Below the pieces are notes generated by a model, which was not told the DNA's origin, searched no databases, and saw only the letters and a list, made by a program, of their open reading frames with translations. A stretch of 64,000 nucleotides of DNA, from contig JBGSRK010000009.1 of the NCBI GenBank assembly GCA_041737595.1, positions 43,233-107,232 of the forward strand, in the 5' to 3' direction. The position numbers and the translations under genes are program-made. Position 1 is the stretch's first letter; every line of letters starts with the position of its first letter. The stretch comes from Patescibacteria group bacterium (lineage in GTDB: Bacteria > Patescibacteriota > CPR2 > UBA1875). Positions 15,784-36,301 of this stretch are shown in pieces.

Positions 15784-15875
15784 ATTCTACCTTAGTTAAG
15801 TACCTAAATAGTTTAGTATCTTAACCTTTATTTGTCAATAATAAATTTTAGGTTAGTTTTAACCTTTACCTAAAT
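15784..15875 (-). promoter_or_regulatory. Promoter/operator region of the marR-ABC operon with inverted repeats (AGGTTAGTTTTAACCT; TTAACCTTTA x2)
   Basis: AT-rich intergenic region with a 6-4-6 inverted repeat typical of MarR operators. Confidence 0.3.
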
Positions 15876-16688: not shown

Positions 16689-16791
16689 AAGATTAGTTTA
16701 TCATTTTACTCAATTAATATAAATAAGCTAAACATAGACAGTTAATTTATTATCCTCTATTTAAAAATAGTAATAAAATCACAAAATATAC

Positions 16792-17832: not shown

Positions 17833-17857
17833 ATTAAAATTTTATCATAAAAGATAA

Positions 17858-18032
17858 TTAATCTTCATCTTCATTCTCAATATCTTCTTCAAAGTTATTT
17901 CCATCCTCTTCGGGCAAATAATCTGGATCTAAACTTTTGTTTTTTTTAGAAATTTTTTCTGCTTCTTCTGCATCTTTTAGCCTGCTTCTAAATTCGCCAT
18001 AACTATCAACCCCTGGTAAAAATTCCCGGCTC
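17858..18032 (-). CDS. Small acidic protein (58 aa), hypothetical
   Basis: ATG 18032..18030 preceded by AAGGAGG at 8-nt spacing. Sequence is MSREFLPGVDSYGEFRSRLKDAEEAEKISKKNKSLDPDYLPEEDGNNFEEDIENEDED. Confidence 0.5.
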
Positions 18033-18047
18033 ATAATAAATGCCTCC

Positions 18048-18785: not shown

Positions 18786-18791
18786 TTATAA

Positions 18792-23835: not shown

Positions 23836-24669
23836 ATGTATATTTTTTTTAGATTTTTCACTAGAGGTATGTCCCATTTCTTCGAATCTATAAAGCTTGC
23901 ATTTTCTTGTAATAAGTCCTATAAACAGTCTATCAAACCATTAATCGAAAAAATTTATAACTGTATGTTTTTTAATCCAAAGAAGAAAAATGAATGGAAG
24001 TTTTGGGATTATAAAATGTCAAAAAAAGTTAGTGAAATTATTAAGGGAGGGGAATTTAAGGAAATAGAAGATCCGGTAGAAAAAAAGTTTTATTTTTGGT
24101 TATTAGAAGAATTGTCTAATGATATTAACTTTAATAAATTAAACACCCTTGAGTTAGGTGCAGGTTCTGGAGCTTTTTCCTATTATTTACAGAAGCGCTT
24201 CAGATGCTCGGTTACACTTTTAGATAATAGTAAAAATGCCATTAAATACGCAAAGTTACTAAACTATAGAGCAAAAATATTAGAAAAAGATGCTCGGCAG
24301 TCATTTGGTATCAGTAAATATAATTTTATTCATACAACTGGGTTACTTGAACACCTTAATGACAAAGATATAAAACAAATAATCAAAAACATTAAGCGAG
24401 CCTTAAAACCTAATGGTATAGCCTTCTTAGCAGTCCCAAATTATTTTAGCCCAGCATTAATAACACTATGGAAAATTCACGGCAAGGGTTCAGAAAGGTA
24501 TATAACAATAAGAGATCTTAAAAAATATATAAAATCTTATGGATTTAACTTGATTGCAGCTCGTCATTCGTATTTTAGTTTTGAAAAGATAACAAGATAT
24601 ATCTGGTTGGAGAAAATAATAGGTAGACTCGGTCTAGGCTTTTTAAATTATATTATTGTACAAAAATGA
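23836..24669 (+). CDS. Class I SAM-dependent methyltransferase
   Basis: LELGAGSGAFSYYL (motif I) ... LLDNS ... LKPNGIAFLAVP. Confidence 0.7.
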   Translation: MYIFFRFFTRGMSHFFESIKLAFSCNKSYKQSIKPLIEKIYNCMFFNPKKKNEWKFWDYKMSKKVSEIIKGGEFKEIEDPVEKKFYFWLLEELSNDINFNKLNTLELGAGSGAFSYYLQKRFRCSVTLLDNSKNAIKYAKLLNYRAKILEKDARQSFGISKYNFIHTTGLLEHLNDKDIKQIIKNIKRALKPNGIAFLAVPNYFSPALITLWKIHGKGSERYITIRDLKKYIKSYGFNLIAARHSYFSFEKITRYIWLEKIIGRLGLGFLNYIIVQK

Positions 24670-24946: not shown

Positions 24947-25963
24947 ATGTATATATATAATAAAAAATATTTCATTGTTACACTGGTTGTATTGGCTTTA
25001 TTCCTAATTACATGTATCGTATTTAATATTTATATGCCAAAAAAACAGACATCTAAAACAAAAATTAGAATTGGTTGGCAAACTCCTTGGGCTATTCAAG
25101 GACAAATAGCTCAAAGTTTAAAAAATACTGATTATTTATCAAAAAATAATCTAGAACCAGAGTTTACTGGTTTTGATTCTGGTGCTCCTCTTAATGAGGC
25201 TGCGTTAGCAGGTAAAGTAGATGTTATATTTACTGCGGATCAACCAGCCGCTACATTATTATCTAAAAGCAGTGACTGGGTAATTGTTTCGCGATTGATG
25301 TATAATAGGGTTTCTCTGTATGTACCACCAAAATCAAGTATTTTAAGCATATCTGATTTAAAAGGGAAAACAGTTGGTATGCCATTTGGGGCAGCGGCAC
25401 AGAGAATGGCTTATAAAGCAGAACAAGATATGGGGCTAAAACCAGGCATAGATGTGAAAAATGTAAACCTGGGAATCTATGAACAAAGTGATTTGGTAAA
25501 AAATTCTGAAGCAACTAATTGGGGCAACTTTGATGCCTTAGCAGGTTTTGATCCGACCCCAGCTGTATTTGAAGATAAGGGACTTATAAAGATGCTTAAA
25601 ACCGATACTGTTATTTCACTAGTACTTGTAAACAAAAAATATATTTCTGAAAATACTGACTCAGTTCGTAGTTTTCTAAAATCACTTAAGTCTAGTTATC
25701 TATTTTATGCACAAAATCAGGAAAAAGCTAACAAATGGTTTAAGGATGCTTCTAGACTAAATATCTCGGATAATGCACTAAAAATTTCTGCCTCTGTTGA
25801 ACCAAACTTAAAAGCAAAAAAAGAAAAAGATATAATACTTAATTTAAATGATAATGATTATAAAATAATGCAGGAAGCTGCAGACTTTTTATTCAATAAT
25901 GGTTTAATAAAAACTAAGGTTGATATGCGAGCTAATGTGAATTTAGATTATCTTACAAAGTAA
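24947..25963 (+). CDS. ABC transporter substrate-binding protein, NMT1/THI5-like (NitT/TauT family)
   Basis: N-terminal TM anchor, then IRIGWQTPWAIQGQIAQ...FDSGAPLNEAALAGKVDVIFTADQPA. Confidence 0.75.
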   Translation: MYIYNKKYFIVTLVVLALFLITCIVFNIYMPKKQTSKTKIRIGWQTPWAIQGQIAQSLKNTDYLSKNNLEPEFTGFDSGAPLNEAALAGKVDVIFTADQPAATLLSKSSDWVIVSRLMYNRVSLYVPPKSSILSISDLKGKTVGMPFGAAAQRMAYKAEQDMGLKPGIDVKNVNLGIYEQSDLVKNSEATNWGNFDALAGFDPTPAVFEDKGLIKMLKTDTVISLVLVNKKYISENTDSVRSFLKSLKSSYLFYAQNQEKANKWFKDASRLNISDNALKISASVEPNLKAKKEKDIILNLNDNDYKIMQEAADFLFNNGLIKTKVDMRANVNLDYLTK

Positions 25964-27081
25964 TGAAAAATATCCTACTTATTTCTATTGATTCTGTAAG
26001 AGCAGATGTAGCATATAATAGCAATCTACCTACATTAGATAATTTAGCAGCCGATGGTATAAAATACATTAATTGTATTTCCTCCTCTCCTCTTACCCCA
26101 GTTAGTCATGCGACTGTTTTGACTGGTTTACAACCATTTAACCACGGTGTCAGACATCTTTTTAAGGAAAAAATGAATGACAAAAGACCAACATTAGCAG
26201 AAATACTGAAATTAAATGGATATAAAACAAGAGCCATTGTCTCTTGTCCAGGGATGAATAGTTGGTACGGATTTTCTCGTGGTTTTGATATATACGATGA
26301 TGAAATCCCAAAATTAACAGACGGTTCTGATGCTCTACTTACTGTTGATGTTGAAAAAAGAGGGTTAGCAATGAAAAGAGCGAAAGACGTAGTTGATAGG
26401 GCTATTTCACATATAGATGAGTTAGATAACAACTTCTTTCTTTTTGTTCACTTTTTCGATGCGCACTGGCCTTACAACCCTCCTAAAAAATATGGTGGAA
26501 AAAATAAATACGAAGAGGAAGTATTTTATACTGATCATCATTTAGGTAGACTTATTAATCACCTTAAAGAGATTAATAAGTATAAAGATACTACTATTAT
26601 ATTATTCTCTGACCACGGGGAAGATCTTGGCGGATGGTATCCGAACGATAAAGCAGGAGATAAATATGGTAATCCAGACGAAAAAGGTCATGGTACACTA
26701 CTATATGATCAGACCATAATGACTGTTCTTATTATAAAAGACTCACGAATTAAAAAAAATCAGACTGTAATAGACCAAGTCAGGCTTGTTGATATTATGC
26801 CAACAATCTTAGATTTACTAGATATAAAAACTGATAATCAGTTTGATGGATTTAACCTTTTAAAGACAACTGAAGAGGAGGGAAAACAGCTACTAGGCTA
26901 TTCTGAGACTTTTTTCCCTGAAGAAATCAAAAGTGGTATTAGTAGAAAAAAATCATTCCGTTTAAATAATACTTATAAAGTCATTATTGGGTTAGATAAT
27001 GATGCAATTGAGTTTTATAACTTAATTGCTGACCCAAACGAGCAAAACAACATGTTTAAAACAATTGACAAAAATGCATAA
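25963..27081 (+). CDS. Alkaline-phosphatase-superfamily enzyme, nucleotide pyrophosphatase/phosphodiesterase (NPP)-like, cytoplasmic
   Basis: LLISIDSVRADV; LTPVSHATVLTGL (Thr nucleophile, T-x-P-x-H motif); FSDHGE. No signal peptide. Confidence 0.7.
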   Translation: MKNILLISIDSVRADVAYNSNLPTLDNLAADGIKYINCISSSPLTPVSHATVLTGLQPFNHGVRHLFKEKMNDKRPTLAEILKLNGYKTRAIVSCPGMNSWYGFSRGFDIYDDEIPKLTDGSDALLTVDVEKRGLAMKRAKDVVDRAISHIDELDNNFFLFVHFFDAHWPYNPPKKYGGKNKYEEEVFYTDHHLGRLINHLKEINKYKDTTIILFSDHGEDLGGWYPNDKAGDKYGNPDEKGHGTLLYDQTIMTVLIIKDSRIKKNQTVIDQVRLVDIMPTILDLLDIKTDNQFDGFNLLKTTEEEGKQLLGYSETFFPEEIKSGISRKKSFRLNNTYKVIIGLDNDAIEFYNLIADPNEQNNMFKTIDKNA

Positions 27082-27091
27082 GTTTGGTAGA
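27063..27091 (+). promoter_or_regulatory. Consensus sigma70-like promoter TTGACA-N17-TAGAAT for the high-GC hisS cassette
   Basis: TTGACA 27063..27068, a 17-nt spacer, then TAGAAT 27086..27091. It lies inside the 3' end of the NPP gene. Confidence 0.45.
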
Positions 27092-27148
27092 ATATGCCCT
27101 ACGAAGGCTCAGTGGGCTTTCGGGCCCCTTAAAAAGGAGAAGATTTAG

Positions 27149-28450
27149 ATGAATAAGAAAAGAGCAGGACTCCTTAGTGGGTTCTTGGATTTCCTTCCCG
27201 AGGTAGAGCTCATGAGAGAGGCCATGATCGATAAGGTTACTGGCGTCTTCAAGCTCTATGGGTATGGTCCCCAAGATACTCCCTGTCTGGAGTACGCCGA
27301 GACCTTGTTAGACAAGTATGGTGAGAACCAGAAGCTTGTCTACGAGTTCGAGGACAATGGTGGGCGAAAGGTTGCCCTGAGGTATGACCTGACCGTTCCG
27401 CTTTCACGTGTGGTGCCGTCCTATCCAAGTAAGATCAAGCTTCCATTCAAGCGCTACCAAGTAGGCAAGGTGTGGCGAGCAGATCGTCCTGGTAAAGGAC
27501 GTTTTCGCGAATTCATACAAGTAGATGCTGACACAATCGGCACGTCCTCGCCGCAGCTCGATTCTGAGCTTGTCATGGTTACACTTGATGTCATCGCCGC
27601 ACTGAAGCTCACAGCATATGTGAGGATCAACGATAAACGGATCCTCGACGCTCTGAGCAAAACATGTGGTCTGACCGAAGAGCAGAAGATACTTGTACTG
27701 CGCTCAATTGACAAGCTGGATAAGATCGGTCAAGACGCTGTAGTTGTCGAGATTAGCAAGATTGGCCTCGATGCTGAGAAGCTAGATATCGTACAGCAGT
27801 ATCTCGGCATCAACGGGATACCCCGTGAAGTCATCACCAGTCTTCGCGACTTGCTTCAGCCGTGTACTGAGCTTGACGAGGGATGCAAAGTTCTCGAGAC
27901 AGTATTCGAAACCGTCTTTGCGCTTGGCTACGATGCCAAGTCTCTGCGTATCGATCCATGTATCGCCCGAGGCCTCGACTACTACACGGGAGTCATCTTC
28001 GAGACCATGCTGGTTGATAACCCAGAATTCGGGAGTATCTGTTCCGGCGGACGTTACGACTCGATCGTCAAGGATGGCAATGGCAGAGTTTTGCCGGCGG
28101 CCGGTGTTTCAATCGGCCTAGATAGACTCTTTGCGGCCATGCTTGATCGGGATCAGCTTCCCAATGCGGAAGCAGTTGCGAGAGTCCTCATTACAAACAT
28201 GGGAGACTCTACTGCTCGGAAAGCAACAGAGATCGCCTCGTCACTCAGACGCGCCGGTATCTCTGTGCTTTACTACCCAGAAAAGGCCAAGCTCGCAAAA
28301 CAGCTTGGCTACGCATCCGACCTTAAGATCCCTTGGGCCCTTATCGTAGGTCCCGAAGAGATCGAAGCCGGTATGTACACCATCCGTTCTATGGTAGACC
28401 GTCAGCAGACAACCGTACCCCAGGATCAAATCATCAAATCACTCCGCTAG
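27149..28450 (+). CDS. hisS: Histidyl-tRNA synthetase, high-GC island copy
   Basis: GRFREFIQVDADTIG (motif 2/HisA), CSGGRYDSIV...AAGVSIGLDRL (motif 3), and a C-terminal anticodon-binding domain. GC ~56%. AAGGAG SD. Confidence 0.9.
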   Translation: MNKKRAGLLSGFLDFLPEVELMREAMIDKVTGVFKLYGYGPQDTPCLEYAETLLDKYGENQKLVYEFEDNGGRKVALRYDLTVPLSRVVPSYPSKIKLPFKRYQVGKVWRADRPGKGRFREFIQVDADTIGTSSPQLDSELVMVTLDVIAALKLTAYVRINDKRILDALSKTCGLTEEQKILVLRSIDKLDKIGQDAVVVEISKIGLDAEKLDIVQQYLGINGIPREVITSLRDLLQPCTELDEGCKVLETVFETVFALGYDAKSLRIDPCIARGLDYYTGVIFETMLVDNPEFGSICSGGRYDSIVKDGNGRVLPAAGVSIGLDRLFAAMLDRDQLPNAEAVARVLITNMGDSTARKATEIASSLRRAGISVLYYPEKAKLAKQLGYASDLKIPWALIVGPEEIEAGMYTIRSMVDRQQTTVPQDQIIKSLR

Positions 28451-28493
28451 ATCAGTGGGGCGGCTTCGCCGCCCCACTGATCTCAATCTTTTA
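28450..28493 (+). terminator. Strong terminator: 15-bp perfect hairpin GATCAGTGGGGCGGC-TTCG-GCCGCCCCACTGATC followed by TCAATCTTTT
   Basis: Seen directly. It overlaps the hisS stop codon and ends 8 nt before the permease start. Confidence 0.6.
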
Positions 28494-28500
28494 AACGAAA

Positions 28501-29136
28501 ATGATTATTTTAAATAACATATTAACATTATTTATTACAGATGGACTTGCCAGCCTTAGTCGGGTTTTTGTCGGTTTTTTTATTGCTATTATTCTAGGGG
28601 TAGGGCTAGGTACTATTACTTTTTATATAAAAGGGTATAGAAATATACTAAAATTAATTGCAGAATTTCTTAAGTCAATTCCACCCATAGCATGGATTCC
28701 TATTACTATTATGTTTTTAGGGCTTGGTTCGCAATCTGCGATATTTATAGTCTTTTTAGGTGGTTTCTTCCCTATTTTTCTTAATACAGCTTACGGCGTA
28801 ACTTCAATGCCAAAAAAATATACTGAAATATCAAAAAATTTCGGAGTAAATGGAGTATATTTTTATCATAAAATTCTCTTAGGCTATCTCATGCCATATA
28901 TATTAACAGGGCTAAAAATAGGGATAGGGATTGCCTGGACAAGTGTAATTGCCTCTGAAATGATAGGAGTTCAAAGTGGTCTTGGCTATTATATTCAGAT
29001 AAACAGACTTTTACTTAATACCCAGGAGGTAGTTACTGGCATGGTAATGATAGGCGTAATTGGTTACGGAATGACAAAGTTTGTTGAGAAAATTGAGAAG
29101 AAGTACTTAGTTTGGCAAGAGGCAAAGAATGCTTAG
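28501..29136 (+). CDS. ABC transporter permease (binding-protein-dependent inner membrane component, SsuC/TauC-like)
   Basis: EAA-like loop region and 6 TM helices. It is adjacent to the ATPase. Confidence 0.8.
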   Translation: MIILNNILTLFITDGLASLSRVFVGFFIAIILGVGLGTITFYIKGYRNILKLIAEFLKSIPPIAWIPITIMFLGLGSQSAIFIVFLGGFFPIFLNTAYGVTSMPKKYTEISKNFGVNGVYFYHKILLGYLMPYILTGLKIGIGIAWTSVIASEMIGVQSGLGYYIQINRLLLNTQEVVTGMVMIGVIGYGMTKFVEKIEKKYLVWQEAKNA

Positions 29137-29815
29137 ATTGGATAATGTTATTTTTAATAGAGGCGGCAAAAGAATACTTGAAAATATCAACATTCATATC
29201 AAAAAATCTGAAGTTGTGAGCATACTTGGACCATCGGGGATAGGGAAAACTACTCTTGCAAAGATTATGTCAGGTTTACTGAATCCTATTTCTGGTTCAG
29301 TATTTTTAGAGGGGAATATTCTGAAAACCCCTGTACCAACACTAGTATTATCTCACCAAGAATCAGATTTGTTTGATTGGTTGACGGTTGAGGAAAATGT
29401 AGGGTTAGTAGGTGGCAAGAAAAACGCAGAAAAATGGCTTAATATATTTGGTCTGGTTGAATACCGTAATAACTATCCAAAAACCCTCTCAGGTGGTATG
29501 AAAAAAAAAGTTTCACTAGCTAGAGCCGCAAGTGTAAATCCTTCTGTAATAATTTTAGACGAGCCGTTCTCTTCACTGGATGAAAAACAAAAAATAAAGT
29601 ATTATAAAGAATTTAAAAATTTAGCAAATCAAGAAGGAGTTGCAATTATTGTTGTGACTCACGACATAAACGAAGCATATAATTTTTCAAACAGAATTAT
29701 TTTTCTAGGTGGCAACCCTGCGACTATAATAGATGAAAAAATTCCGACCGGGGAAGAAAGTTCAAGTGAAAAAAGAGATTTAGTACTAAAAAATCTTGAG
29801 TCGATAGGAAAATGA
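29129..29815 (+). CDS. ABC transporter ATP-binding protein (SsuB/TauB-like)
   Basis: GPSGIGKTT; LSGGMKKKVSLARA; ILDEPFSSLD; THD H-loop. Confidence 0.85.
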   Translation: MLRLDNVIFNRGGKRILENINIHIKKSEVVSILGPSGIGKTTLAKIMSGLLNPISGSVFLEGNILKTPVPTLVLSHQESDLFDWLTVEENVGLVGGKKNAEKWLNIFGLVEYRNNYPKTLSGGMKKKVSLARAASVNPSVIILDEPFSSLDEKQKIKYYKEFKNLANQEGVAIIVVTHDINEAYNFSNRIIFLGGNPATIIDEKIPTGEESSSEKRDLVLKNLESIGK

Positions 29816-29818
29816 AAG

Positions 29819-31159
29819 ATGAAATATTTAAAAACCGTACTCCCGATGGAAATAAATGAAATCCCAAAGGCAGCTTCGCTTTTAATATCAAGAGCAAGAG
29901 ATTTTGAAGTCTTACTATTTTCTGAGGCAGGGAGCTGGCCTATTAAATATATTTGGGAAAAGATGGCTGCAAAAGATAATAATTATAATAAAGTATTTTT
30001 TTCATCAAAAATTACTTCATTTTCAAAAAGTCCACTAGCTAATCAATTGTGTGGACTGCTAACAATTACTGAAAGAAAATCAAAGCTTTCTCAAAAGAAA
30101 AAAAATAAGATTGCTACACTTTTAAATTCATTTAATGATGAATTTAAAGGTAAAATAACAAATCAGTTACTTAATCAAAATGTAGAAAAAATTATACATT
30201 ATATTTCTTCAATGGGGCTTATAATCCCTAGTGAAGAAGGGTTGATAAAACAAAATAAATGTTTTGATAATAATATATCCACACTTAGTAAAAATTTTAT
30301 TGATTTTAAAAAAAAATCAGTATCATACATTCTTTCTGATCTCCCAAATATTAAACATGAAGTTAGGCCTATACTGCAGATAATTTTATCAGATACTAAA
30401 TTTGGTAAAGCAATAAAGTCACGAAAAGTTTATGTATTTGATGAGATAATAAGTCGTGGGAGGACTATCAATTCTATAGAAGTGATTATAAATTCATTTT
30501 CATCCACAACGGATTGGGTTATGGGAGTTGTCTATTGCCCAAAGTTTTATGTTGGAAGTAAAATTGATTTTGTTTATAGCGATAAAAAGGCATTACCTAC
30601 GTCAAATCGACCAGATATGATTGGAGAAGTGACTTATGAGACTGTATTTGCTTTTGAAACTAAATCACTTACGAATATTTTGCCTAATACAAGAGTAAAA
30701 AATGAAGACGATATAAGTATTTATAACAGTGAAATTGCAAAGTTTAATAGTCGATATTTCCCAAAGCTTAAAATGTTAAATAAGACATCTTTTCGAGCTC
30801 TTTTAAACTTATACTTTATGGCTGACGATAAGGATATATTTGAAAAGTGCCTTCATCTTAATTTAGTTGAATCAGTAAGCCTTTTAGAAGAAATCGCTTT
30901 TTATATAACAATGCCATTTCCACTTTCAGATATTATAAAACGAAATAAGTTTAAAAAAGAATCACGGCAAGTATTAAAAAAATTAGAATGCTCAATAACT
31001 AATTCTGATTTTTCTGATAACCTTAACAAGCTAAAAATAAAGTACTATGCTATTAGAAGTATAATTATTAAGAGTGAAATAGCTTCCTGGATAAAAACAA
31101 ATACTAAAGTAATAAGGGAGTTAGACTTAGTACTGGAGGAGGTTTTTAATGGAAAATAG
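29819..31159 (+). CDS. Hypothetical 446-aa protein with a central PRPP-binding (type I PRTase)-like motif
   Basis: KVYVFDEIISRGRTINS resembles hhhhD(D/E)hh(T/S)(T/S)GxT. The N- and C-terminal parts are unrecognised. It sits inside the ABC/NPP cluster. Confidence 0.35.
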   Translation: MKYLKTVLPMEINEIPKAASLLISRARDFEVLLFSEAGSWPIKYIWEKMAAKDNNYNKVFFSSKITSFSKSPLANQLCGLLTITERKSKLSQKKKNKIATLLNSFNDEFKGKITNQLLNQNVEKIIHYISSMGLIIPSEEGLIKQNKCFDNNISTLSKNFIDFKKKSVSYILSDLPNIKHEVRPILQIILSDTKFGKAIKSRKVYVFDEIISRGRTINSIEVIINSFSSTTDWVMGVVYCPKFYVGSKIDFVYSDKKALPTSNRPDMIGEVTYETVFAFETKSLTNILPNTRVKNEDDISIYNSEIAKFNSRYFPKLKMLNKTSFRALLNLYFMADDKDIFEKCLHLNLVESVSLLEEIAFYITMPFPLSDIIKRNKFKKESRQVLKKLECSITNSDFSDNLNKLKIKYYAIRSIIIKSEIASWIKTNTKVIRELDLVLEEVFNGK

Positions 31160-32546
31160 CTATAAACATATTATTCTTATTTCTATTGATACTTTACGAG
31201 CAGACTGTATTACTGCAGTCGAAACTAGTGATTTTATAAAAAAATATGGTCCAAAAAATTTTTCTACAAAATCACTAAATAATATTGTGAAAAAAGGTAC
31301 TTTTTTCACAAACTGTATCTCGGCAGCACCATATACAACAGCTTCACATGCAGCCTATTTTACTGGTTGTTGGCCTAAAAATAACGGAGTTTATGAATTC
31401 TTTAACCAAAAATTAAAGAAACCTACTATATTTGAATTTGCAAAAAATAACCAATATAGAACTATATTTCAAACTGACTTTCCTATTATTCTAGGTGAAA
31501 CACTTGGGTTTACTAAGGATGTTGATGATTATTTTATTGAGGATGAAATATCAGCTTTTGACAAATTAAAAAATTCAACAAAAAAAACTGTTTCTTTTTT
31601 CCATTTTGGTGGTGTTCATTATCCATATGGGTTTCATAAACTAAAGTTTGCTGGAAAGGATTATATCCATAAAGTTGAAAGTCTAGAAAAAGAATTATCC
31701 GTTAGTAGTAAAGACAAATTAGACGATATATTAGTAGAAAGCTATTATAATAACAAAGATAGAGAGCTACTTTCCAGATATAAAAGGATAGTCGACAAAC
31801 TTTACAGAGAAAAAAAATATAATCGACTGAAGAATCTATATATTGAGGGAATAGATTATTTTATGGAAAATCGGTTCAATAGCTTTATAAAAAAAATAGT
31901 TGATTTTACCGACAGCACTGGTAGTTTACTAGTTATCTTTGCTGACCATGGGGAAGAATGGGATGATTTATCGCGCGGACATGCAAATTCCATCTCTGAC
32001 ACTGTTCTTCGAGTCCCTCTTATATTCTATGGGAAGGGTATCCCAAAAGGCGTAATAAATGATAGTTTAGTTAGAACAATCGATCTTCTCCCTACTATTT
32101 CGAATTTATTTAACATAGAAACCCCTCAATTAGATGGCGTAGCCATGAAATTTACAAAAGAAAAGAAAAATACAAACAATATGGCAATTTCTCAGGTTTG
32201 GAGATTAGGAGATAAGGATAAAATAGCAAAACACCAACAAATGATGATTAACAAAGAAAAGGTGGCGCCCCTACAGACTCTCTTAGAAAAAGAATCAATA
32301 TATTTCAAAAATGTAGCATTTAAAAGAATATACAACAAAGAAGGAACAACTATTTCTGAAAAAACATATTATAATAATGGAAAACAACTTATAAATTCAG
32401 TTGATACACAAAATGAAGAGTTAATAATAATGAAAAATCTACTTGAGAAATATAATTCAAAAGGATTTCGAAAAGTTGAGGCGGCAATTAGTTTACCTAA
32501 AAGACTTATTAAAGAGCTTCGCATGCAGGGCTATAAAATAAAATAA
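31149..32546 (+). CDS. Second NPP-like alkaline-phosphatase-superfamily paralogue, cytoplasmic
   Basis: ILISIDTLRADC; YTTASHAAYFTGCWP; FADHGEEWDD. Confidence 0.7.
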   Translation: MENSYKHIILISIDTLRADCITAVETSDFIKKYGPKNFSTKSLNNIVKKGTFFTNCISAAPYTTASHAAYFTGCWPKNNGVYEFFNQKLKKPTIFEFAKNNQYRTIFQTDFPIILGETLGFTKDVDDYFIEDEISAFDKLKNSTKKTVSFFHFGGVHYPYGFHKLKFAGKDYIHKVESLEKELSVSSKDKLDDILVESYYNNKDRELLSRYKRIVDKLYREKKYNRLKNLYIEGIDYFMENRFNSFIKKIVDFTDSTGSLLVIFADHGEEWDDLSRGHANSISDTVLRVPLIFYGKGIPKGVINDSLVRTIDLLPTISNLFNIETPQLDGVAMKFTKEKKNTNNMAISQVWRLGDKDKIAKHQQMMINKEKVAPLQTLLEKESIYFKNVAFKRIYNKEGTTISEKTYYNNGKQLINSVDTQNEELIIMKNLLEKYNSKGFRKVEAAISLPKRLIKELRMQGYKIK

Positions 32547-32557
32547 AGGAGAATATT

Positions 32558-33844
32558 TTGCCTAAATATAAAACAATTAAACCTCCCAGAGGAATGCATG
32601 ATCAATTTGAAGAAGATTTATTAAAAATTGAATCAGTTATTTCTATAGCATCTGAGATTGCTAGATCATACGGATTTAAAAGAATAGAAACCCCCACTAT
32701 TGAGTCAATCGAAGTTTTCACAAATACTGGAGATAAGACGATTGATAAATGTTTTACATTTATGGATAAATCAAACCGCGAGATGATATTGAGACCAGAT
32801 ATAAATGCTCCAATCAGCCGCGCTATAGTAAATCATAGCTCATCTCAACCACTACCTCAAAAAATATTTTTCCATGGCAGCGTTTTCAGATATAGAAAAT
32901 CATACCGACGTGAGTTTATTATGTTTGGGGTAGAGACATATGGGATTGCTGAGCCTATTGCAGACGCCGAAATACTTCGAGTAGTGGTTGATTTGATTAA
33001 AAGACTGGGTTTTAAAAAATATACGATTGAATATAGTAATCTTTCAATATTTAGTAGGTTGATTAAATTTTTATCAAAGACAGACAAAGTTAATGTTAAT
33101 GTAGAAGAGCTAATATATAAGCTTAGATTTCATAATAAAAAAGAGCAAAAAAGTATTTTAAATAAAATAGGTTTCCAAAAAAAATCAGAAGAGCTAATCA
33201 TGGATTTTCTATCTTGCCCAGAGGTGAATAAAAACAGCTTTAATTTACTTAAAAAGGTAGCGGCTATGGATAAGTCTATAGAAATTGAAGCTCTGTCTGT
33301 TCTGAATTTCCGAGATGAACTCTTAAAACAACAGTTATCAAATTGTATTTTTAAAATTTCAAATCTACATGGTGAATCATTTTACTCTGGTCTTACATAT
33401 CGTTTATATTTATCAACAGAAATGGGAGATGGGGGAAGATATGACAATTTTACTCTTTTACTAGGGGGTTTATATATTCCAGCTACTGGGTTAGGTTTTG
33501 GTATTAGTAGATTAATTAGACTAGCAGAAGCAGAAAGTATATTAATCCCAATAAAAACAAACATAAAATATTTAGTTCGAATAGTAAGAGGCTCTGAAGA
33601 AACTGTACGACCTTATCTGAGATTACTTAGGAAACAAAATATTATTGTCAACGAAATCCCTGAAGACTATAAAGATGATCGGTTGATGCCATTTGCAATC
33701 AAAGGTGGTTATCACCGTATCTTTGTTATAAAAAGTTTTAACAAAATAAGTGGACTTTATGAAGTTTGGTCAATAAATATAGTTGATGGAACTAATAAAA
33801 AATTTTCTACATATGGTCTAAAAGATATATTTAATTGCTCATAA
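32558..33844 (+). CDS. Second histidyl-tRNA synthetase homologue (low-GC, native-composition copy)
   Basis: Class II motifs: ILRPDINAPISRA (motif 1 region), FRYRKSYRREFIMFGVETYG (motif 2), GDGGRYDNF...ATGLGFGISRLI (motif 3), and a C-terminal anticodon-binding-like domain. It is 12 nt downstream of NPP-2. Confidence 0.75.
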   Translation: MPKYKTIKPPRGMHDQFEEDLLKIESVISIASEIARSYGFKRIETPTIESIEVFTNTGDKTIDKCFTFMDKSNREMILRPDINAPISRAIVNHSSSQPLPQKIFFHGSVFRYRKSYRREFIMFGVETYGIAEPIADAEILRVVVDLIKRLGFKKYTIEYSNLSIFSRLIKFLSKTDKVNVNVEELIYKLRFHNKKEQKSILNKIGFQKKSEELIMDFLSCPEVNKNSFNLLKKVAAMDKSIEIEALSVLNFRDELLKQQLSNCIFKISNLHGESFYSGLTYRLYLSTEMGDGGRYDNFTLLLGGLYIPATGLGFGISRLIRLAEAESILIPIKTNIKYLVRIVRGSEETVRPYLRLLRKQNIIVNEIPEDYKDDRLMPFAIKGGYHRIFVIKSFNKISGLYEVWSINIVDGTNKKFSTYGLKDIFNCS

Positions 33845-34074: not shown

Positions 34075-35481
34075 CTAGATGGTCAGTGAGCCAAGAATTT
34101 CGGTCCACTGGCCGACAATGCGCTCGGTCGACTCAATCGAGAGACCAATATAGTTATGCGCCGGATCCTTGATAGTCGCAAGTTCAGAAGCGTTGAAAGT
34201 GTTGATATAGGTACGAAGCTTCTGACTTTGAAGTGCGAGGTCCTGGACCGAGACCCCTGTCTCTTTCGACTCGAGAGTCAAAAGACGAACAGCTTCATGC
34301 GCATCCGGATGACCGTGTTTGGCCAAAAGAATGTAGAGCTGCTCACCACATGAACCCTTTCTCATCTCGAGGTTGCGTTCCATGTTGCCAGTGTGAACCT
34401 GAAGCTTCTTCATCGTTTTTGTGATTTTGGTCACGACGATGTAGAGATAGCCCAGAATCTCACCATAAGTACGGCCGGATGCTGAGTTAGTTAGGTCACG
34501 TTGGTGCTCACAGATCTGATCAAGCTGGACCGTAACCCAGCGACCAACCAGAACCTTGTAGAGTGACTCCGCGTTTTCGAAGTTGATCGGGTTCTGCTTG
34601 TCGGGCATCGTTGATGACCCGACCTGACCAGCTTCGAAAAATTCACCGACTTCGGCAATTTCTGTACGCTGCAGGTTCCGCATATCGCGTGAGAGTCCGG
34701 CAAGGAGTCCGGCGGTCTGTACGACCTCAAACAGTAGGTACTGAAGCGGTTCAGGTGGTGCGATCTGAGTTGAGATCGGCGCCGGGTTGACACCAAGTCG
34801 GCCAAGCACAAGACGCTCGAACTCACGAGGATCATCCACTAGAAGCGAGCTGGCATTGTACGCTCCAACTGCTCCAGAGAACTTCCCAACCAGACCGTTT
34901 TTGGCCTGGCAGAGTTTAAGAATCTTCTGACCAAGGGCGTCGACGTACTTTGAGATGGCATTGCCAAAGGTGATCGGAACGGCGTGTTGGCCGTGGGTTC
35001 GACCTACCTGAAGCTGAGCCTTCTCCCGGAGAGCAAGATCGATTAGGACCTTCTCGAGCTCGATCAGAGCCGGAAGAAGGACCTGTTCAGTCACTGCCTT
35101 GTAGCGCGCCACGTTGGCAGTATCGATAATGTCGTACGAAGTGGCAGCAAGGTGGACGAATGGACGGGCTTCTGGACTTACTCGAGCCTGAATGCAGTTG
35201 ACGACCGCTCGGATGTCATGCCGTGTCAGATCTTCCTCCTTGTACACCTCATCGGTCGTGATCTGCTTGCAAGCCTCAGTGACCTCATCAAGGACATCAG
35301 ACGAACAAAGGCCAAGCTCTGCAAGAGTGGCAACAAGCGCACACTCTGCCTCGAGCTTGTAATCCGTGAAAGCATTCTCGGACAGGAACGGTACGAGCGG
35401 AATCACATCCTTCGCGTAACGAGTATCGATAGGAGCAATCCCATCCCAACGGTCATAAGTGACTTTTTCAGTAGGCTCCAT
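34075..35481 (-). CDS. purB: Adenylosuccinate lyase; high-GC island gene
   Basis: The fumarate-lyase family signature region and the PurB N-terminus (YDRWDGIAPIDTRYA) are present. GC ~57%. Start is probably ATG 35481 (MEPTEK) with AGGAG upstream; the longest ORF starts at GTG 35517. Confidence 0.85.
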   Translation of the reverse strand: MEPTEKVTYDRWDGIAPIDTRYAKDVIPLVPFLSENAFTDYKLEAECALVATLAELGLCSSDVLDEVTEACKQITTDEVYKEEDLTRHDIRAVVNCIQARVSPEARPFVHLAATSYDIIDTANVARYKAVTEQVLLPALIELEKVLIDLALREKAQLQVGRTHGQHAVPITFGNAISKYVDALGQKILKLCQAKNGLVGKFSGAVGAYNASSLLVDDPREFERLVLGRLGVNPAPISTQIAPPEPLQYLLFEVVQTAGLLAGLSRDMRNLQRTEIAEVGEFFEAGQVGSSTMPDKQNPINFENAESLYKVLVGRWVTVQLDQICEHQRDLTNSASGRTYGEILGYLYIVVTKITKTMKKLQVHTGNMERNLEMRKGSCGEQLYILLAKHGHPDAHEAVRLLTLESKETGVSVQDLALQSQKLRTYINTFNASELATIKDPAHNYIGLSIESTERIVGQWTEILGSLTI

Positions 35482-35752
35482 GGCGATTATCTTCTCCTTT
35501 TTCAAAGGGCTGGACACAACGAGAATGTCGCTATTTTACTACCAAATAAGGGAAAGGTAAACGTGCTTTATATCCTAAATGTTCAAAAAACTTTATTTTT
35601 TTAAATCGATTTTAGTAAAAATAAAAAAATAGATAAAAAACATGAATTATTTACAGTAAACGATTGTTATGTTAATATACCCGCACGTGTAAGAAAGACA
35701 AACGTCAAGATCTACAGTTTCCTTCAATAGAGAGGTAAGGTGAAAAGGCTCT

Positions 35753-36301
35753 ATGGCTGCAAACGTACCGCTTCTTAGTACCAAATGGCCCAACAAAGAG
35801 GCATATGTCGCGATTGTGCTCGGTAGCAAGAATGATTACAGCAAGATCGAAAAGTTGATCGAGATGATGGAGAAGTTCTCTATCCCCTACGTCATCGTCG
35901 TCATCTCGGCACACCGCAACAAGCAAAAACTCGACGAGTTCATCCAAGGATTATCTGCCACAAACGTTCGCTTTGTCGTAGCTGTCGCCGGTATGGCAGC
36001 AGCACTAGGTGGCGCAATTGCCGCGGAGACCTGTCTTCCAGTATTTGGCATCCCACTACCATCACCGAATGACCCCGATGGTATTGGTGCCAAATTCGCA
36101 ACCAATGAGTTGCCTCCAGGCATCGCACAAGTAGCAGTTCTGGCGGACAATGTCTCAGACAACAGCACACGAATCGTGAACTTGATTGCTCGAACTCTTG
36201 CGATCCTTGACCCCAACTATAAGGGGTTGAAAGAGTTCATGGCAAGTGCATCCGTCGAGAAGCCACCAGTCATTCCGTATGTTCCAAAGGAGGCGAGCTA
36301 G
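35753..36301 (+). CDS. purE: AIR carboxylase / N5-CAIR mutase catalytic subunit; high GC
   Basis: YVAIVLGSKNDYSKIEK...VISAHRN...VAVAGMAAALGGAIAAETCLPVFGIP. Confidence 0.85.
   Translation: MAANVPLLSTKWPNKEAYVAIVLGSKNDYSKIEKLIEMMEKFSIPYVIVVISAHRNKQKLDEFIQGLSATNVRFVVAVAGMAAALGGAIAAETCLPVFGIPLPSPNDPDGIGAKFATNELPPGIAQVAVLADNVSDNSTRIVNLIARTLAILDPNYKGLKEFMASASVEKPPVIPYVPKEAS

What the first reader, a model, noticed from the sequence alone, without database searches (positions are those of the whole stretch)
24947..33844. Unusual gene cluster: NitT/TauT-type ABC importer, two cytoplasmic NPP-family phosphodiesterases, an unknown 446-aa PRTase-like protein and a HisRS paralogue
The cluster has an NMT1/THI5-like SBP, permease and ATPase. 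It also has two paralogous alkaline-phosphatase-superfamily enzymes with the NPP Thr-nucleophile motif (T-x-P-x-H...TG) and no signal peptides. An uncharacterised 446-aa protein carries the only recognisable element, a PRPP-binding-like loop (VYVFDEIISRGRT). All are co-directional and separated by 0-12 nt, or overlap by 8-11 nt, ending in an aaRS homologue. Intracellular NPP enzymes plus a PRTase-like protein and an aaRS-like ligase suggest import and processing, or synthesis, of a nucleotide- or pyrimidine-type compound; NMT1/THI5 SBPs bind HMP-type pyrimidines or sulfonates. I do not know this combination as a described system. It may be a salvage pathway typical of nutritionally dependent CPR cells, or an aminoacyl-nucleotide metabolite pathway.
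Basis: inference. Interest (0 to 1): 0.65.

Follow-up and report, generated by a model that had tools for sequence, protein, structure and literature searches.

The report
Conserved CPR histidyl-tRNA-synthetase paralogue gene cluster
This is one version of a previously undescribed gene cluster, conserved across many candidate-phyla-radiation bacteria, that joins the histidine tRNA-charging enzyme and an old remodelled copy of it to an uptake transporter, two phosphatase-like enzymes and a swappable third enzyme; what it processes is still unknown.

Summary
The genes are real and co-directional.

The neighbourhood is strongly conserved. About 26 distinct loci carry it, all of the named ones from CPR/Patescibacteria. 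The constant core is not the 446-aa protein. It is a HisRS plus HisRS-paralogue pair ('HisPar') with a NitT/TauT-type ABC importer. Usually there are also two cytoplasmic alkaline-phosphatase-superfamily enzymes with a Thr nucleophile (AP1, AP2).

The slot beside AP2 varies: the 446-aa protein X, a Mom-like acyltransferase, two SAM methyltransferases, or a radical-SAM enzyme.

- **X:** a rare new family with no Pfam hit. Its predicted structure (pLDDT 88) has a type-I PRTase core and an intact PRPP loop. The best fold hit is the PRPP-dependent ribofuranosyltransferase of Bcs3.
- **HisPar:** monophyletic. It keeps ATP- and imidazole-binding residues but has R259→H and lacks R121. It fits neither HisRS nor HisZ.
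- **Recurrent neighbours:** HAL-like lyase, tRNA-His, HisG/HisI, and S66/S51/HIT/GNAT enzymes, the families known to detoxify aminoacyl-nucleotides.

Best reading (about 0.35): uptake and processing of an anionic histidine-linked, possibly nucleotide-type, compound. The substrate is unresolved. Nothing supports a pyrimidine/HMP role.

The parts
23836..24669 (+). SAM-dependent methyltransferase. Possible accessory member, co-directional, 277 nt upstream of the SBP.
   Evidence: Pfam Methyltransf_23/25/11. 40 bits to the in-cluster methyltransferase of L008. Methyltransferases lie inside the cluster in L004, L008, L019 and the P0019 contig.
24947..25963 (+). Membrane-anchored substrate-binding protein of a NitT/TauT-type ABC importer.
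   Evidence: Pfam NMT1 1e-08, OpuAC 4.4e-05; TIGR01728 SsuA_fam 3.7e-27, below cutoff. Best solved relatives are SsuA 2x26 (1.5e-05) and TauA. N-terminal hydrophobic anchor. Orthologues in 10 or more loci.
25963..27081 (+). AP1: cytoplasmic alkaline-phosphatase-superfamily enzyme with a sulfatase-family fold and a Thr nucleophile.
   Evidence: Pfam Sulfatase 5.6e-38, Phosphodiest 1.9e-17. N-terminus aligns to NPP 2gsn. Invariant D10, T45, H49, H61, H163, D166, H168, D217, H218, H243 in 10 orthologues.
27065..27093 (+). Best promoter-like site of the region, directly upstream of hisS.
   Evidence: TTGACA-17-TAGAAT with TG, 11 of 12 matches. Consensus match only.
27149..28450 (+). Canonical histidyl-tRNA synthetase (hisS), carried on a GC-rich cassette.
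   Evidence: TIGR00442 360.5 bits (cutoff 286.75). Pfam tRNA-synt_His plus HGTP_anticodon. GC 0.515 and GC3 0.57, against GC3 of about 0.2 in the neighbours. The closest relatives (at most 47% identity) are the HisRS genes that sit beside HisPar in other CPR. All catalytic residues are canonical.
28449..28483 (+). Terminator-like GC hairpin that closes the hisS cassette.
   Evidence: 16-bp stem with 11 GC pairs, followed by a T-rich tail.
28501..29136 (+). ABC importer permease.
   Evidence: Pfam BPD_transp_1 3.6e-19. NCBIfam SaoP, NtrB, TauC and SsuC all below cutoff. Conserved beside HisPar in most loci.
29129..29815 (+). ABC importer ATPase, short form with no regulatory domain.
   Evidence: Pfam ABC_tran 2.6e-29. 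NCBIfam NtrCD, PhnT2, SaoA and TauB all below cutoff.
29819..31159 (+). X: new protein family with a type-I PRTase-like core, a helical insertion and a C-terminal helical bundle. Lineage-variable accessory enzyme.
   Evidence: No Pfam or PDB sequence hit. 3 relatives among 5.8e9 proteins by word search and 14 at E<1e-30 among 1.84e9 representatives. AF2 pLDDT 88.3. Foldseek hits to Bcs3 and type-I PRTases. PRPP loop invariant. hhalign aligns only that loop.
31149..32546 (+). AP2: second cytoplasmic Thr-nucleophile alkaline-phosphatase-superfamily enzyme. Overlaps the end of X by 11 nt.
   Evidence: Pfam Sulfatase 8e-20, Phosphodiest 2.2e-07. Invariant D14, T63, H67, H152, H157, D266, H267, H278 in 14 orthologues. 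Always next to the variable enzyme.
32558..33844 (+). HisPar: full-length HisRS paralogue with a remodelled active site.
   Evidence: Pfam tRNA-synt_His only. hisS 189.7 (cutoff 286.75) and hisZ 161.7 (cutoff 271.65), both below cutoff. Distinct clade of about 25 proteins, monophyletic 23/23. R259->H in 23/23, residues 120-122 deleted, Q127->M; R113, F125, Y264, GGRYD and R311 kept. The C-terminal domain aligns to the HisRS anticodon domain.

Best explanation
**What it is (shown).** This is a CPR-specific operon built around histidine. The constant core is a canonical HisRS, an old HisRS paralogue (HisPar), and a binding-protein-dependent NitT/TauT-type importer. Most versions add two cytoplasmic, metal-dependent, Thr-nucleophile alkaline-phosphatase-superfamily enzymes (AP1, AP2) and one interchangeable enzyme next to AP2. 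In this window that enzyme is X.

**How I think it works (inferred).**
1. The importer takes up an anionic, histidine-related (imidazole-bearing) phospho- or sulfo-ester, possibly a nucleotide-type conjugate.
2. AP1 and AP2 cleave or transfer its ester group or groups through a covalent Thr intermediate.
3. X uses PRPP to add ribose-5-phosphate to the compound or to a released moiety. AP2, whose gene overlaps X, then acts as the follow-up phosphatase, as CriT and CrpP do in Bcs3.
4. In other lineages a Mom-like acyltransferase, methyltransferases or a radical-SAM enzyme does an alternative tailoring step.
5. HisPar keeps the adenine/ATP and imidazole contacts but has lost two catalytic arginines. 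It does not charge tRNA. It binds histidine or a histidyl-adenylate-like ligand and acts as a sensor or ligand-handling subunit, on the same logic as HisZ. This ties the pathway to HisRS and to the histidine supply of an auxotrophic cell.
For: **Conservation and restriction to CPR**
-.
- 8 loci among 185,579 species genomes; the six with a named lineage are CPR.

**Histidine link beyond the paralogue**
- HisRS lies immediately upstream of HisPar in about 20 of 26 loci, often overlapping it.
- The foreign GC-rich hisS in this window still sits inside the cluster and belongs to the cluster-linked HisRS subfamily.
- tRNA-His follows the ATPase in L014.
- A HAL-like lyase with the MIO motif is adjacent in L011 and L019.
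- HisG and PRA-CH are adjacent on the P0019 contig.

**Importer type:**

**AP1 and AP2**
- Catalytic residues are invariant.
- Thr occupies the formylglycine position and there is no C/S-x-P-x-R motif.

**X**
- PRTase core with an invariant PRPP loop.
- Distant X-like domains are fused to a PfkB kinase plus ARMT1 phosphatase, a HAD phosphatase, an NTP-transferase and a radical-SAM domain.
- CriT is a PRPP-dependent ribose-5-P transferase with a PRTase core plus helical bundles, and it is followed by a phosphatase (PMC10299916).

**HisPar**
- The residue pattern is strictly conserved, which argues for a selected ligand site and against decay.
Against: - No substrate is identified.
- NitT/TauT importers are not known to carry histidine compounds. 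Similarity of the SBP to SsuA and TauA is weak (28 bits).
- Type C loci (L006, L010, L031) have HisRS, HisPar and the importer but neither AP1 nor AP2. The AP step is therefore not universal.
- HisPar also occurs without X, so it cannot be an obligate partner of X.
- Fold hits for X never reach E<=0.001, and profile-profile comparison aligns only the PRPP loop (hhalign probability 8%).
- Methyltransferases, the Mom-like protein and the radical-SAM enzyme add groups rather than release histidine. That fits tailoring or biosynthesis better than simple scavenging.
- The S66, S51, HIT and GNAT neighbours fit the aminoacyl-nucleotide rival at least as well.
- No riboswitch or T-box gives a ligand clue.
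Confidence: 0.35

Rival explanations
1. Handling of toxic aminoacyl-nucleotides, that is immunity or turnover. HisRS is the target of a histidyl-adenylate mimic. HisPar is a non-catalytic decoy or presenter that binds the mimic tightly. AP1 and AP2 (phosphodiester, sulfamate or phosphoramidate cleavage), together with neighbouring peptidases and hydrolases, destroy it.
For: - L014/L034 carry HisRS-HisPar-permease-TauE-ATPase-tRNAHis-GNAT-HIT-S51-S66-NUDIX, all on one strand.
- S66 peptidases flank the cluster in four lineages: L008 (two copies), L014, L015/L041 and L016.
- S51 peptidases lie in or beside it in L006, L010, L031, L026 and L014.
- GNAT (MccE2), S66 (MccF), HIT (MccH) and S51 (MccG) are exactly the four families shown to inactivate aminoacyl-nucleotide aaRS inhibitors (PMC9239234).
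- HisPar keeps the adenine and imidazole contacts but changes the residues at the carboxyl/alpha-phosphate junction (R259H, Q127M).
- AP1 also hits the sulfamidase C-terminal domain SGSH_C.
Against: - To my knowledge no natural HisRS-directed aminoacyl-nucleotide is known.
- An SBP-dependent importer as a core component is odd for an immunity locus.
- S66 (LdcA) and S51 (PepE) are also ordinary peptide-recycling enzymes. NCBIfam names them only weakly.
- In this window the only S66 gene lies 7 kb away.
- PADLOC finds nothing.
Confidence: 0.2
2. Biosynthesis of an aminoacyl-nucleoside natural product of the ascamycin type. HisPar would attach a histidyl group. X would build the nucleoside. The sulfatase-family enzymes would build the sulfo- or phospho-linker. 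The variable enzymes would tailor the product, and the importer would bring in a sulfur or phosphorus precursor.
For: - The ascamycin cluster likewise combines two aaRS-type genes (acmD, acmF), a sulfatase essential for production (acmG, 480 aa), an acylsulfatase, a radical-SAM protein (453 aa) and a phosphoribosyltransferase (PMC4257720).
- A conserved core with a swappable tailoring enzyme (X, Mom-like, two methyltransferases, or radical-SAM) is typical of such pathways.
- Immunity-type neighbours are present.
Against: - There are no sulfate-activation or sulfotransferase genes and no dedicated exporter. TauE appears in only one lineage.
- The transporter is an importer.
- These are tiny CPR genomes.
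- A Thr nucleophile argues for phosphoryl rather than sulfuryl chemistry.
- The cluster-linked HisRS looks like a housekeeping enzyme rather than a resistance copy.
Confidence: 0.1
3. HisPar is a HisZ-like regulatory subunit of a new phosphoribosyltransferase (X), and the cluster is a variant of the early histidine / PRPP pathway. X would replace HisG, and the NPP-like AP enzymes would act as PR-ATP pyrophosphatase or as phosphatases.
For: - HisZ is the one known case of a HisRS paralogue working with a PRTase.
- NCBI annotators already label one member 'ATP phosphoribosyltransferase regulatory subunit'.
- HisG and PRA-CH lie beside the cluster on the P0019 contig.
- In the NJ tree the sister group of HisPar is a set of tRNA-synt_His-only (no Pfam anticodon domain) paralogues.
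- purB, purE, purC, purL, purM and purQ surround the cluster in this window.
Against: - HisPar occurs in many loci without X (types B and C).
- It keeps a C-terminal domain that aligns to the anticodon-binding domain and falls below the hisZ cutoff.
- X has a type-I PRT fold, not the type-IV fold of HisG.
- The HisG on the P0019 contig is the long form, which does not need HisZ.
- No other his genes are seen in the 64-kb window, judged by eye.
Confidence: 0.1
4. Two functionally separate modules that merely travel together. One is a hisS duplication, with HisPar modulating or partnering HisRS. The other is an ordinary organophosphate or organosulfonate scavenging operon made of the ABC importer and AP-type esterases.
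For: - Type C loci keep HisRS, HisPar and the importer without AP enzymes.
- The SBP is closest to sulfonate and taurine binders.
- A TauE/SafE anion exporter is inserted in L014.
- AP-superfamily enzymes are classic phosphate- and sulfate-scavenging enzymes.
Against: - Gene order is kept across several named CPR lineages from Saccharibacteria to Levybacteria.
- HisPar is nearly always directly next to the permease or AP2.
- The genes overlap.
- A foreign hisS has been retained inside the cluster.
Confidence: 0.15
5. One reading: uptake and salvage of an HMP/thiamin-type pyrimidine or a generic nucleotide.
For: - Pfam NMT1/THI5-like hit for the SBP.
- PRTase-like X.
- NPP-like nucleophile in AP1 and AP2.
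Against: - No ThiD, TenA, ThiE or other thiamin gene appears in any locus.
- The SBP is closer to SsuA/TauA than to any pyrimidine binder among solved structures.
- X is dispensable in many versions.
- This reading does not explain the HisRS/HisPar core.
Confidence: 0.07

Closest known systems
HisZ / HisG(short) ATP phosphoribosyltransferase
   Same: A HisRS paralogue that does not charge tRNA is encoded with, and in that system works with, a PRPP-using transferase. Histidine is the governing ligand.
   Different: - HisPar keeps a C-terminal domain that aligns to the anticodon-binding domain.
- It scores below the hisZ model cutoff and forms its own clade.
- It occurs without any PRTase in many loci.
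- X has a type-I PRT fold, not the fold of HisG.
- The rest of the cluster (importer, AP enzymes) has no counterpart.
CriT-CrpP module of the Bcs3 capsule polymerase (PDB 8a0c/8a0m; PMC10299916)
   Same: X is about 446 aa, with a PRTase-like core plus helical bundles. Bcs3 is its best Foldseek hit by E-value. Its gene overlaps a phosphatase-type gene (AP2), and distant X-like domains are fused to HAD or ARMT1 phosphatases.
   Different: - The match is weak (E 2.9e-3, TM about 0.23) and there is no sequence similarity.
- The partner is an alkaline-phosphatase-superfamily enzyme, not a HAD.
- There is no polymerase or other capsule gene in the cluster.
Microcin C-type immunity enzymes (MccE2 GNAT, MccF S66, MccH HIT, MccG S51; PMC9239234)
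   Same: All four families occur next to the HisRS/HisPar cluster in L014. S66 or S51 genes recur beside it in about eight lineages. The setting is an aaRS locus.
   Different: - No mccA or mccB.
- The target would be HisRS, not AspRS.
- None of these genes is inside the cluster in this window.
- No function has been tested.
Ascamycin/dealanylascamycin biosynthetic cluster (PMC4257720)
   Same: It combines two aaRS-type genes, two sulfatase-family genes, a phosphoribosyltransferase and a radical-SAM protein.
   Different: - It is an actinomycete cluster with sulfate activation, a sulfotransferase, a halogenase and an MFS exporter, all absent here.
- The CPR cluster has an SBP-dependent importer.
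- Its sulfatase-like enzymes have Thr instead of formylglycine.
NitT/TauT ABC importers (SsuABC, TauABC, NrtABCD, ThiXYZ)
   Same: Same three-component architecture and same families for the SBP, permease and ATPase.
   Different: - All three components fall below every equivalog cutoff.
- The substrate is unknown.
- There are no partner desulfonation or thiamin genes.
hisS genes linked to histidine transport in histidine decarboxylase (hdc) clusters
   Same: A HisRS-type gene is encoded next to a histidine-related transport system. This rests on my own recollection, prompted by the title of PMC12072131; I did not read that paper.
   Different: The transporter there is an antiporter and the pathway is decarboxylation. 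There are no AP-superfamily enzymes, and the paralogue does not have a remodelled active site.

Membership tests
Canonical HisRS (applied to HisPar, 32558-33844) | Passes the hisS equivalog model TIGR00442. | tested here: not met
   189.7 bits against a cutoff of 286.75. The in-cluster hisS at 27149-28450 scores 360.5.
Canonical HisRS (applied to HisPar) | Catalytic arginines R259 (HisA motif) and R121 (motif 2 loop), and Q127, in E. coli numbering. | tested here: not met
   R259->H in 23/23. Positions 120-122 deleted in 23/23. Q127->M in 22/23. R113, R123, E124, F125, Y264, GGRYD and R311 are kept.
Canonical HisRS (applied to HisPar) | Recognisable HGTP anticodon-binding domain. | tested here: inconclusive
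   No Pfam PF03129 hit. However, the clade profile aligns to T. acidophilum HisRS 1wu7 through residue 408 of 434, which covers that domain.
HisZ (ATP-PRT regulatory subunit) | Passes TIGR00443. | tested here: not met
   161.7 bits against a cutoff of 271.65.
HisZ | Truncated protein without an anticodon-domain region, encoded in a genome with a short HisG. | tested here: not met
   HisPar is 428 aa with an aligned C-terminal domain. No HisG-like ORF was seen in the 64-kb window by reading translations. The only HisG seen near a cluster is the long form. The whole genome could not be tested.
Type-I phosphoribosyltransferase (applied to X) | PRPP-binding loop: hydrophobic run, two acidic residues, then a [ST]-G-x-T type phosphate loop. 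| tested here: met
   VYVFDEIISRGRT. D208, S212, R213 and R215 are invariant, and E209 (D in two members) and G214 are near-invariant, in 11 sequences. NCBIfam APRT 1.3e-3 at residues 159-230. hhalign aligns this loop to APRT/PyrR/HPRT.
Type-I phosphoribosyltransferase (applied to X) | Sequence membership (Pfam PF00156 or a profile match over the core). | tested here: not met
   No Pfam hit for any of the 11 members. No PDB sequence hit. hhalign probability 8%, with only 41 columns aligned.
Type-I phosphoribosyltransferase (applied to X) | Five-stranded parallel alpha/beta core fold. | tested here: inconclusive
CriT-type PRPP-dependent ribofuranosyltransferase | PRTase core plus helical bundles, coupled to a phosphatase that removes the 5-phosphate. 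| tested here: inconclusive
   Top Foldseek hits are 8a0m and 8a0c (E 2.9e-3 to 1.1e-2, probability 0.91-0.96, TM about 0.23). Architecture per PMC10299916. X overlaps AP2 by 11 nt. Distant homologues are fused to HAD or ARMT1 phosphatases. Activity is not testable here.
S1 sulfatases (applied to AP1 and AP2) | C/S-x-P-x-R formylglycine motif. | tested here: not met
   The motif is replaced by T-P-V-S-H in AP1 and T-T-A-S-H in AP2. Thr is invariant (T45, T63) and His replaces Arg.
S1 sulfatases / Pfam PF00884 fold | Pfam Sulfatase domain above the gathering score, with metal ligands D...D-H. | tested here: met
   131.4 and 71.8 bits against a cutoff of 25. D10/D217/H218 and D14/D266/H267 are invariant.
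NPP / Pfam PF01663 (applied to AP1 and AP2) | Thr nucleophile in a T-x-P-x-H...TG context, with a Pfam hit above the cutoff. | tested here: inconclusive
   Phosphodiest scores 64.4 and 31.2 bits against a cutoff of 23, but is weaker than Sulfatase and covers mainly the N-terminus. NPP 2gsn aligns only to residues 4-66. The motif is T-x-x-x-H.
NitT/TauT ABC importer | NMT1/SsuA-type SBP, BPD_transp_1 permease and ABC ATPase encoded together. | tested here: met
   All specific equivalog models (Ssu, Tau, Nrt, Sao, PhnT) fall below cutoff, so no substrate can be assigned.
Microcin-C-type aminoacyl-nucleotide immunity set | GNAT, S66, HIT or S51 hydrolases encoded with the system. | tested here: inconclusive
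   Present in related loci (L014: all four; S66 or S51 in about eight lineages). In this window there is only an S66 gene, 7 kb away at 16792-17832. Substrate specificity is not testable here.

The most novel reading that the evidence does not exclude
The cluster is a new aaRS-paralogue-centred pathway, specific to CPR bacteria, that makes, senses or destroys a histidyl-nucleotide (a His-AMP-like molecule). HisPar would be its dedicated binding or ligating protein. X would be a new PRPP-dependent transferase family. The Thr-type sulfatase-fold enzymes would act on the phospho- or sulfo-linker. This would be the first HisRS-directed aminoacyl-nucleotide system, and the first function other than HisZ for a HisRS paralogue.
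Probability: 0.2. Interest if true: 0.85.

Novelty: new variant of a known kind. Interest (0 to 1): 0.62.

Why it matters
- CPR/Patescibacteria are a large share of bacterial diversity, and most of their lineage-specific genes have no assigned function. A gene order kept from Saccharibacteria to Levybacteria and Gracilibacteria marks something these reduced symbionts need.
- The cluster gives three concrete biochemical targets:
  1. A third kind of HisRS-derived protein, after HisRS and HisZ, with a conserved but remodelled active site.
  2. A new PRTase-fold family related in shape to the recently discovered PRPP-dependent glycosyltransferases.
  3. Cytoplasmic sulfatase-fold enzymes that use Thr instead of formylglycine.
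- If the link to histidyl-adenylate-like compounds holds, it would open a new class of aaRS-directed metabolites or defences. It would also say how auxotrophic episymbionts obtain or protect their histidine supply.

Tried and rejected
- **Structure of X from 3 sequences:** pLDDT 40.8, unusable. Redone with 11 sequences.
- **Sequence searches for X:** Pfam, NCBIfam and PDB sequence searches gave nothing beyond the PRPP loop. Profile-profile comparison against APRT/PyrR/HPRT aligned only that loop.
- **PADLOC defence models:** no hits for X, HisPar, AP1, AP2 or the Mom-like protein.
- **Riboswitch or T-box search:** Rfam at gathering threshold on the window and 20 related loci found only tRNAs and one marginal group I intron hit. 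No ligand clue came from RNA.
- **A dedicated tRNA in the cluster:** only L014/L034 have a tRNA-His.
- **Literature:** six searches found no description of this cluster or of a CPR HisRS paralogue.
- **Assembly chimera as the cause of the GC-rich hisS:** rejected. An independent Logan assembly (L003) has the same junctions. The boundaries are gene-precise and carry their own promoter-like and terminator-like sites.
- **HisPar as a recent tandem duplicate of the adjacent hisS:** rejected. It is as distant from the adjacent HisRS (0.90) as from any other HisRS (0.87), and both groups are monophyletic.
- **HMP/thiamin reading:** rejected for lack of any supporting gene.

Full report
**1. What is in the window**

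Between 24947 and 33844 there are eight co-directional genes on the + strand:
- a membrane-anchored substrate-binding protein (SBP, 24947-25963)
- AP1 (25963-27081)
- a full histidyl-tRNA synthetase (hisS, 27149-28450)
- an ABC permease (28501-29136)
- an ABC ATPase (29129-29815)
- the 446-aa protein X (29819-31159)
- AP2 (31149-32546)
- a HisRS paralogue, here called HisPar (32558-33844)

Family assignments come from Pfam and NCBIfam. Gene junctions are tight (1-nt shared, 8-nt overlap, 3-nt gap, 11-nt overlap, 11-nt gap) except around hisS, where the gaps are 67 and 50 nt. A SAM methyltransferase (23836-24669) lies 277 nt upstream on the same strand and resembles methyltransferases found inside the cluster elsewhere.

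**2. The hisS cassette is compositionally foreign but belongs to the cluster**

- hisS has GC 0.515 and GC3 0.57. Its neighbours have GC3 of about 0.2.
- It carries the best promoter-like site of the region (27065-27093) and a 16-bp GC hairpin terminator (28449-28483).
- An independent assembly (L003) has the same junctions, so this is not an assembly chimera.
- Its closest relatives are at most 47% identical. They are precisely the HisRS genes that sit beside HisPar in other CPR contigs, judged by shared contig lengths with HisPar hits and by loci L013 and L017.
- In a crude NJ tree these cluster-linked HisRS are monophyletic, 21 of 21.
- All of them have canonical catalytic residues.

**3. 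The neighbourhood is conserved**

Sources were look-ups of X and HisPar homologues, a scan of 185,579 species genomes (8 loci) and a metagenome scan (23 loci, 17 of them true HisPar loci). I annotated these with phmmer against the window proteins. This gives about 26 distinct loci.

Named taxa are Saccharibacteria, Paceibacterota, Buchananbacteria, Gracilibacteria, Nomurabacteria, Levybacteria and 'Parcubacteria group'.

Architectures:
- **Type A:** SBP-AP1-(NIF3)-X-AP2-HisRS-HisPar-permease-ATPase (L011, L027, L039, L012, L001, L015/L041, L016).
- **Type B:** SBP-AP1-(methyltransferase or NIF3)-HisRS-HisPar-(two methyltransferases)-AP2-(Mom-like PF25680 protein)-permease-ATPase (L004, L008, L018-L022). 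A variant has a radical-SAM gene before AP2 (P0019 contig).
- **Type C:** HisRS-HisPar-(265-aa nucleotidyltransferase-like protein)-SBP'-ATPase-permease-S51 peptidase, with no AP enzymes (L006, L010, L031, L024).

HisRS lies immediately upstream of HisPar in about 20 of the 26 loci, often overlapping it. The slot next to AP2 holds X, or the Mom-like protein, or two methyltransferases, or a radical-SAM enzyme, and X and the Mom-like protein are never found together. The window is a rearranged type A.

**4. Protein X**

- It is rare: 3 relatives by word search among 5.8e9 proteins, and 14 at E<1e-30 among 1.84e9 cluster representatives.
- It has no Pfam hit and no PDB sequence hit.
- An 11-sequence alignment shows these conserved motifs: FPExGA, SSKIT...K, IPSED, H..R.LLN, IYVIDEAISRGRTLN, SNRPD..G.
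- With that alignment AlphaFold2 gives pLDDT 88.3 and pTM 0.87. With 3 sequences it gave only 40.8.
- The model has a parallel alpha/beta core (strands 31-35, 59-63, 203-210, 232-239, 249-254). The conserved DE..SRGRT loop follows strand 203-210. There is a helical insertion at about 64-200 and a C-terminal helical bundle at about 297-446.
- Foldseek against the PDB finds no hit at E<=0.001, but the list is very consistent. The top hits are the Bcs3 capsule multienzyme (8a0m, 8a0c; E 2.9e-3 to 1.1e-2; probability 0.91-0.96). Then come about 40 type-I PRTases (PyrR, HGPRT, APRT, OPRT) at probability up to 0.99 and TM 0.4-0.52 normalised to the target.
- Bcs3 contains CriT, a PRPP-dependent ribofuranose-5-phosphate transferase. 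CriT has a PRTase-like core plus three helical bundles (about 445 residues) and is followed in the reaction cycle by the phosphatase CrpP (PMC10299916).
- Distant X-like domains are fused to a PfkB kinase plus ARMT1-like phosphatase, a HAD hydrolase, an NTP-transferase, a nucleoside-kinase-like P-loop domain, and a radical-SAM/SPASM domain.
- Profile-profile comparison with APRT, PyrR and HPRT aligns only the PRPP loop.

My conclusion is that X is a new family with a PRTase fold and an intact PRPP site, most like CriT in overall build. It is not a sequence member of PF00156.

**5. AP1 and AP2**

- Both are sulfatase-fold proteins by Pfam (5.6e-38 and 8e-20). Their best solved relatives are S1 sulfatases and phosphonate monoester hydrolases.
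- At the formylglycine position they have an invariant Thr, and His replaces the motif Arg (T45/H49 in AP1, T63/H67 in AP2).
- The N-terminal 60 residues of AP1 align to Xanthomonas NPP (2gsn, 3e-07).
- The metal ligands and several His residues are invariant in 10 and 14 orthologues respectively.
- Neither protein has a signal peptide.
- They are therefore intact cytoplasmic enzymes. From established knowledge of the superfamily (NPP, LtaS and EptA use Thr; sulfatases need formylglycine), they most likely carry out phosphoryl rather than sulfuryl transfer. This step is an inference.

**6. HisPar**

- About 25 proteins form a tight group (E<=1e-42), followed by a gap down to ordinary HisRS.
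- The clade is monophyletic, 23 of 23. It is as distant from the adjacent HisRS (0.90) as from other HisRS (0.87).
- It falls below both the hisS and hisZ model cutoffs.
- Its profile aligns to archaeal HisRS 1wu7 over nearly the whole length, including the anticodon-domain region.
- Mapped to E. coli numbering, these are kept: R113, R123, E124, F125, Y264, GGRYD, R311.
- These are changed in essentially all members: R259->H, a 3-residue deletion that removes G120-R121-Y122, Q127->M, T85->N/D, E270->R, A284->D.
- From established HisRS enzymology, R259 and R121 contact the alpha- and gamma-phosphates of ATP, and Q127 and R259 contact the carboxylate. The ATP/adenine and imidazole parts of the pocket are therefore kept, while the catalytic centre is rebuilt.
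- Strict conservation of the new residues argues for a selected ligand site, not for decay.

**7. Recurrent neighbours**

Histidine-related neighbours:
- tRNA-His directly after the ATPase in L014/L034
- a HAL-family lyase with the MIO motif in L011, and one with an SSG variant of it in L019
- long-form HisG plus PRA-CH on the P0019 contig

Peptidase and hydrolase neighbours:
- S66 peptidases in L008 (two copies), L014, L015/L041 and L016
- S51 peptidases in L006, L010, L031, L026 and L014
- L014 has GNAT, HIT, S51, S66 and NUDIX genes in a row, all on the cluster strand

GNAT (MccE2), S66 (MccF), HIT (MccH) and S51 (MccG) are the four families shown to inactivate aminoacyl-nucleotide aaRS inhibitors (PMC9239234).

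The ascamycin cluster also pairs two aaRS-type genes with two sulfatase-type genes, a PRTase and a radical-SAM protein (PMC4257720).

These are associations only. No function was tested.

**8. Interpretation**

The data show a histidine-centred, CPR-restricted operon. It has an importer, two Thr-type esterases or transferases, a swappable tailoring enzyme and a non-canonical HisRS-like ligand-binding protein.

I favour uptake and processing of an anionic, histidine-linked, possibly nucleotide-type compound, with HisPar acting as a HisZ-like sensor or handler (confidence about 0.35). The main rivals are:
- immunity or turnover of a His-AMP mimic (0.2)
- two independent modules travelling together (0.15)
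- ascamycin-like biosynthesis (0.1)
- a HisZ/X variant phosphoribosyltransferase pathway (0.1)

No riboswitch, T-box or defence-model hit helps to decide between them. No publication describing the cluster was found.

**9. Verdict**

The finding is a real, conserved and undescribed system made of known protein kinds plus one new family. Its substrate is unresolved. Interest 0.62.

Noticed in passing
window 7846-8847, 27149-28450, 34075-35517(-), 35753-36301, 36302-37156: Five gene-precise GC-rich islands (GC about 0.50-0.53, GC3 0.56-0.61) in a genome whose other genes have GC3 of about 0.13-0.29. They are a long purC-like gene, hisS, purB, purE and a second purC. All are ATP, purine or histidine-charging functions. 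This suggests gene-by-gene import from one or more higher-GC donors. No close donor was found for hisS (best 47% identity).
   Followed up: partly
window 27065-27093 and 28449-28483: The foreign hisS brings its own promoter-like site and a strong GC hairpin terminator. It therefore probably splits the ancestral operon into SBP-AP1 and permease-ATPase-X-AP2-HisPar transcription units.
   Followed up: partly
window 16792-17832 (-): A Peptidase_S66 (LdcA/MccF family) gene lies 7 kb upstream of the cluster. The same family flanks the cluster directly in four other CPR lineages.
   Followed up: partly
L014 5215-8418 (identical in L034): tRNA-His, GNAT, HIT, S51 peptidase, S66 peptidase and NUDIX follow HisRS-HisPar-permease-TauE-ATPase on one strand. 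These include all four families known to detoxify aminoacyl-nucleotide antibiotics.
   Followed up: partly
L011 12879-14483 (-) and L019 1552-2784 (+): Histidine-ammonia-lyase-family genes lie directly beside the cluster in two different architectures. The MIO motif is ASG in L011 and SSG in L019. Both score below the hutH cutoff, so they could act on a histidine derivative.
   Followed up: partly
P0019 contig (JGI 3300075153, no DNA held), genes at 11047-19855: A radical-SAM gene occupies the slot before AP2. Downstream lie long-form HisG, PRA-CH, a TrpR-like regulator, two methyltransferases, an amidohydrolase and a second NIF3. A TrpR-like gene also follows the cluster in L008 (15645-15965).
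   Followed up: no
L004 4952-5212 (+): A marginal Rfam group I intron match (52.6 bits, gathering score 50) in the intergenic region just upstream of the cluster's SBP gene.
   Followed up: no
L001 8883-9506: A GC-rich (0.55) 624-nt non-coding gap lies between AP2 and HisPar, where other type A loci have hisS. It may be a remnant of a lost or replaced hisS.
   Followed up: no
window 38597-39583 (-): A Fic/DOC-type protein (motif HAFFDGNKR) with a RhuM-like N-terminus, next to tRNA-Asp. Assigned by eye only.
   Followed up: no
window 48566-49477 and 62045-63937: A FemAB-like (aminoacyl-tRNA-dependent peptidoglycan bridge) gene beside a MurE-like gene, and a membrane-anchored LtaS-type sulfatase-family protein. 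The latter is a third Thr-type AP-superfamily protein in the window, this one extracytoplasmic. Both were assigned by eye from the translations.
   Followed up: no
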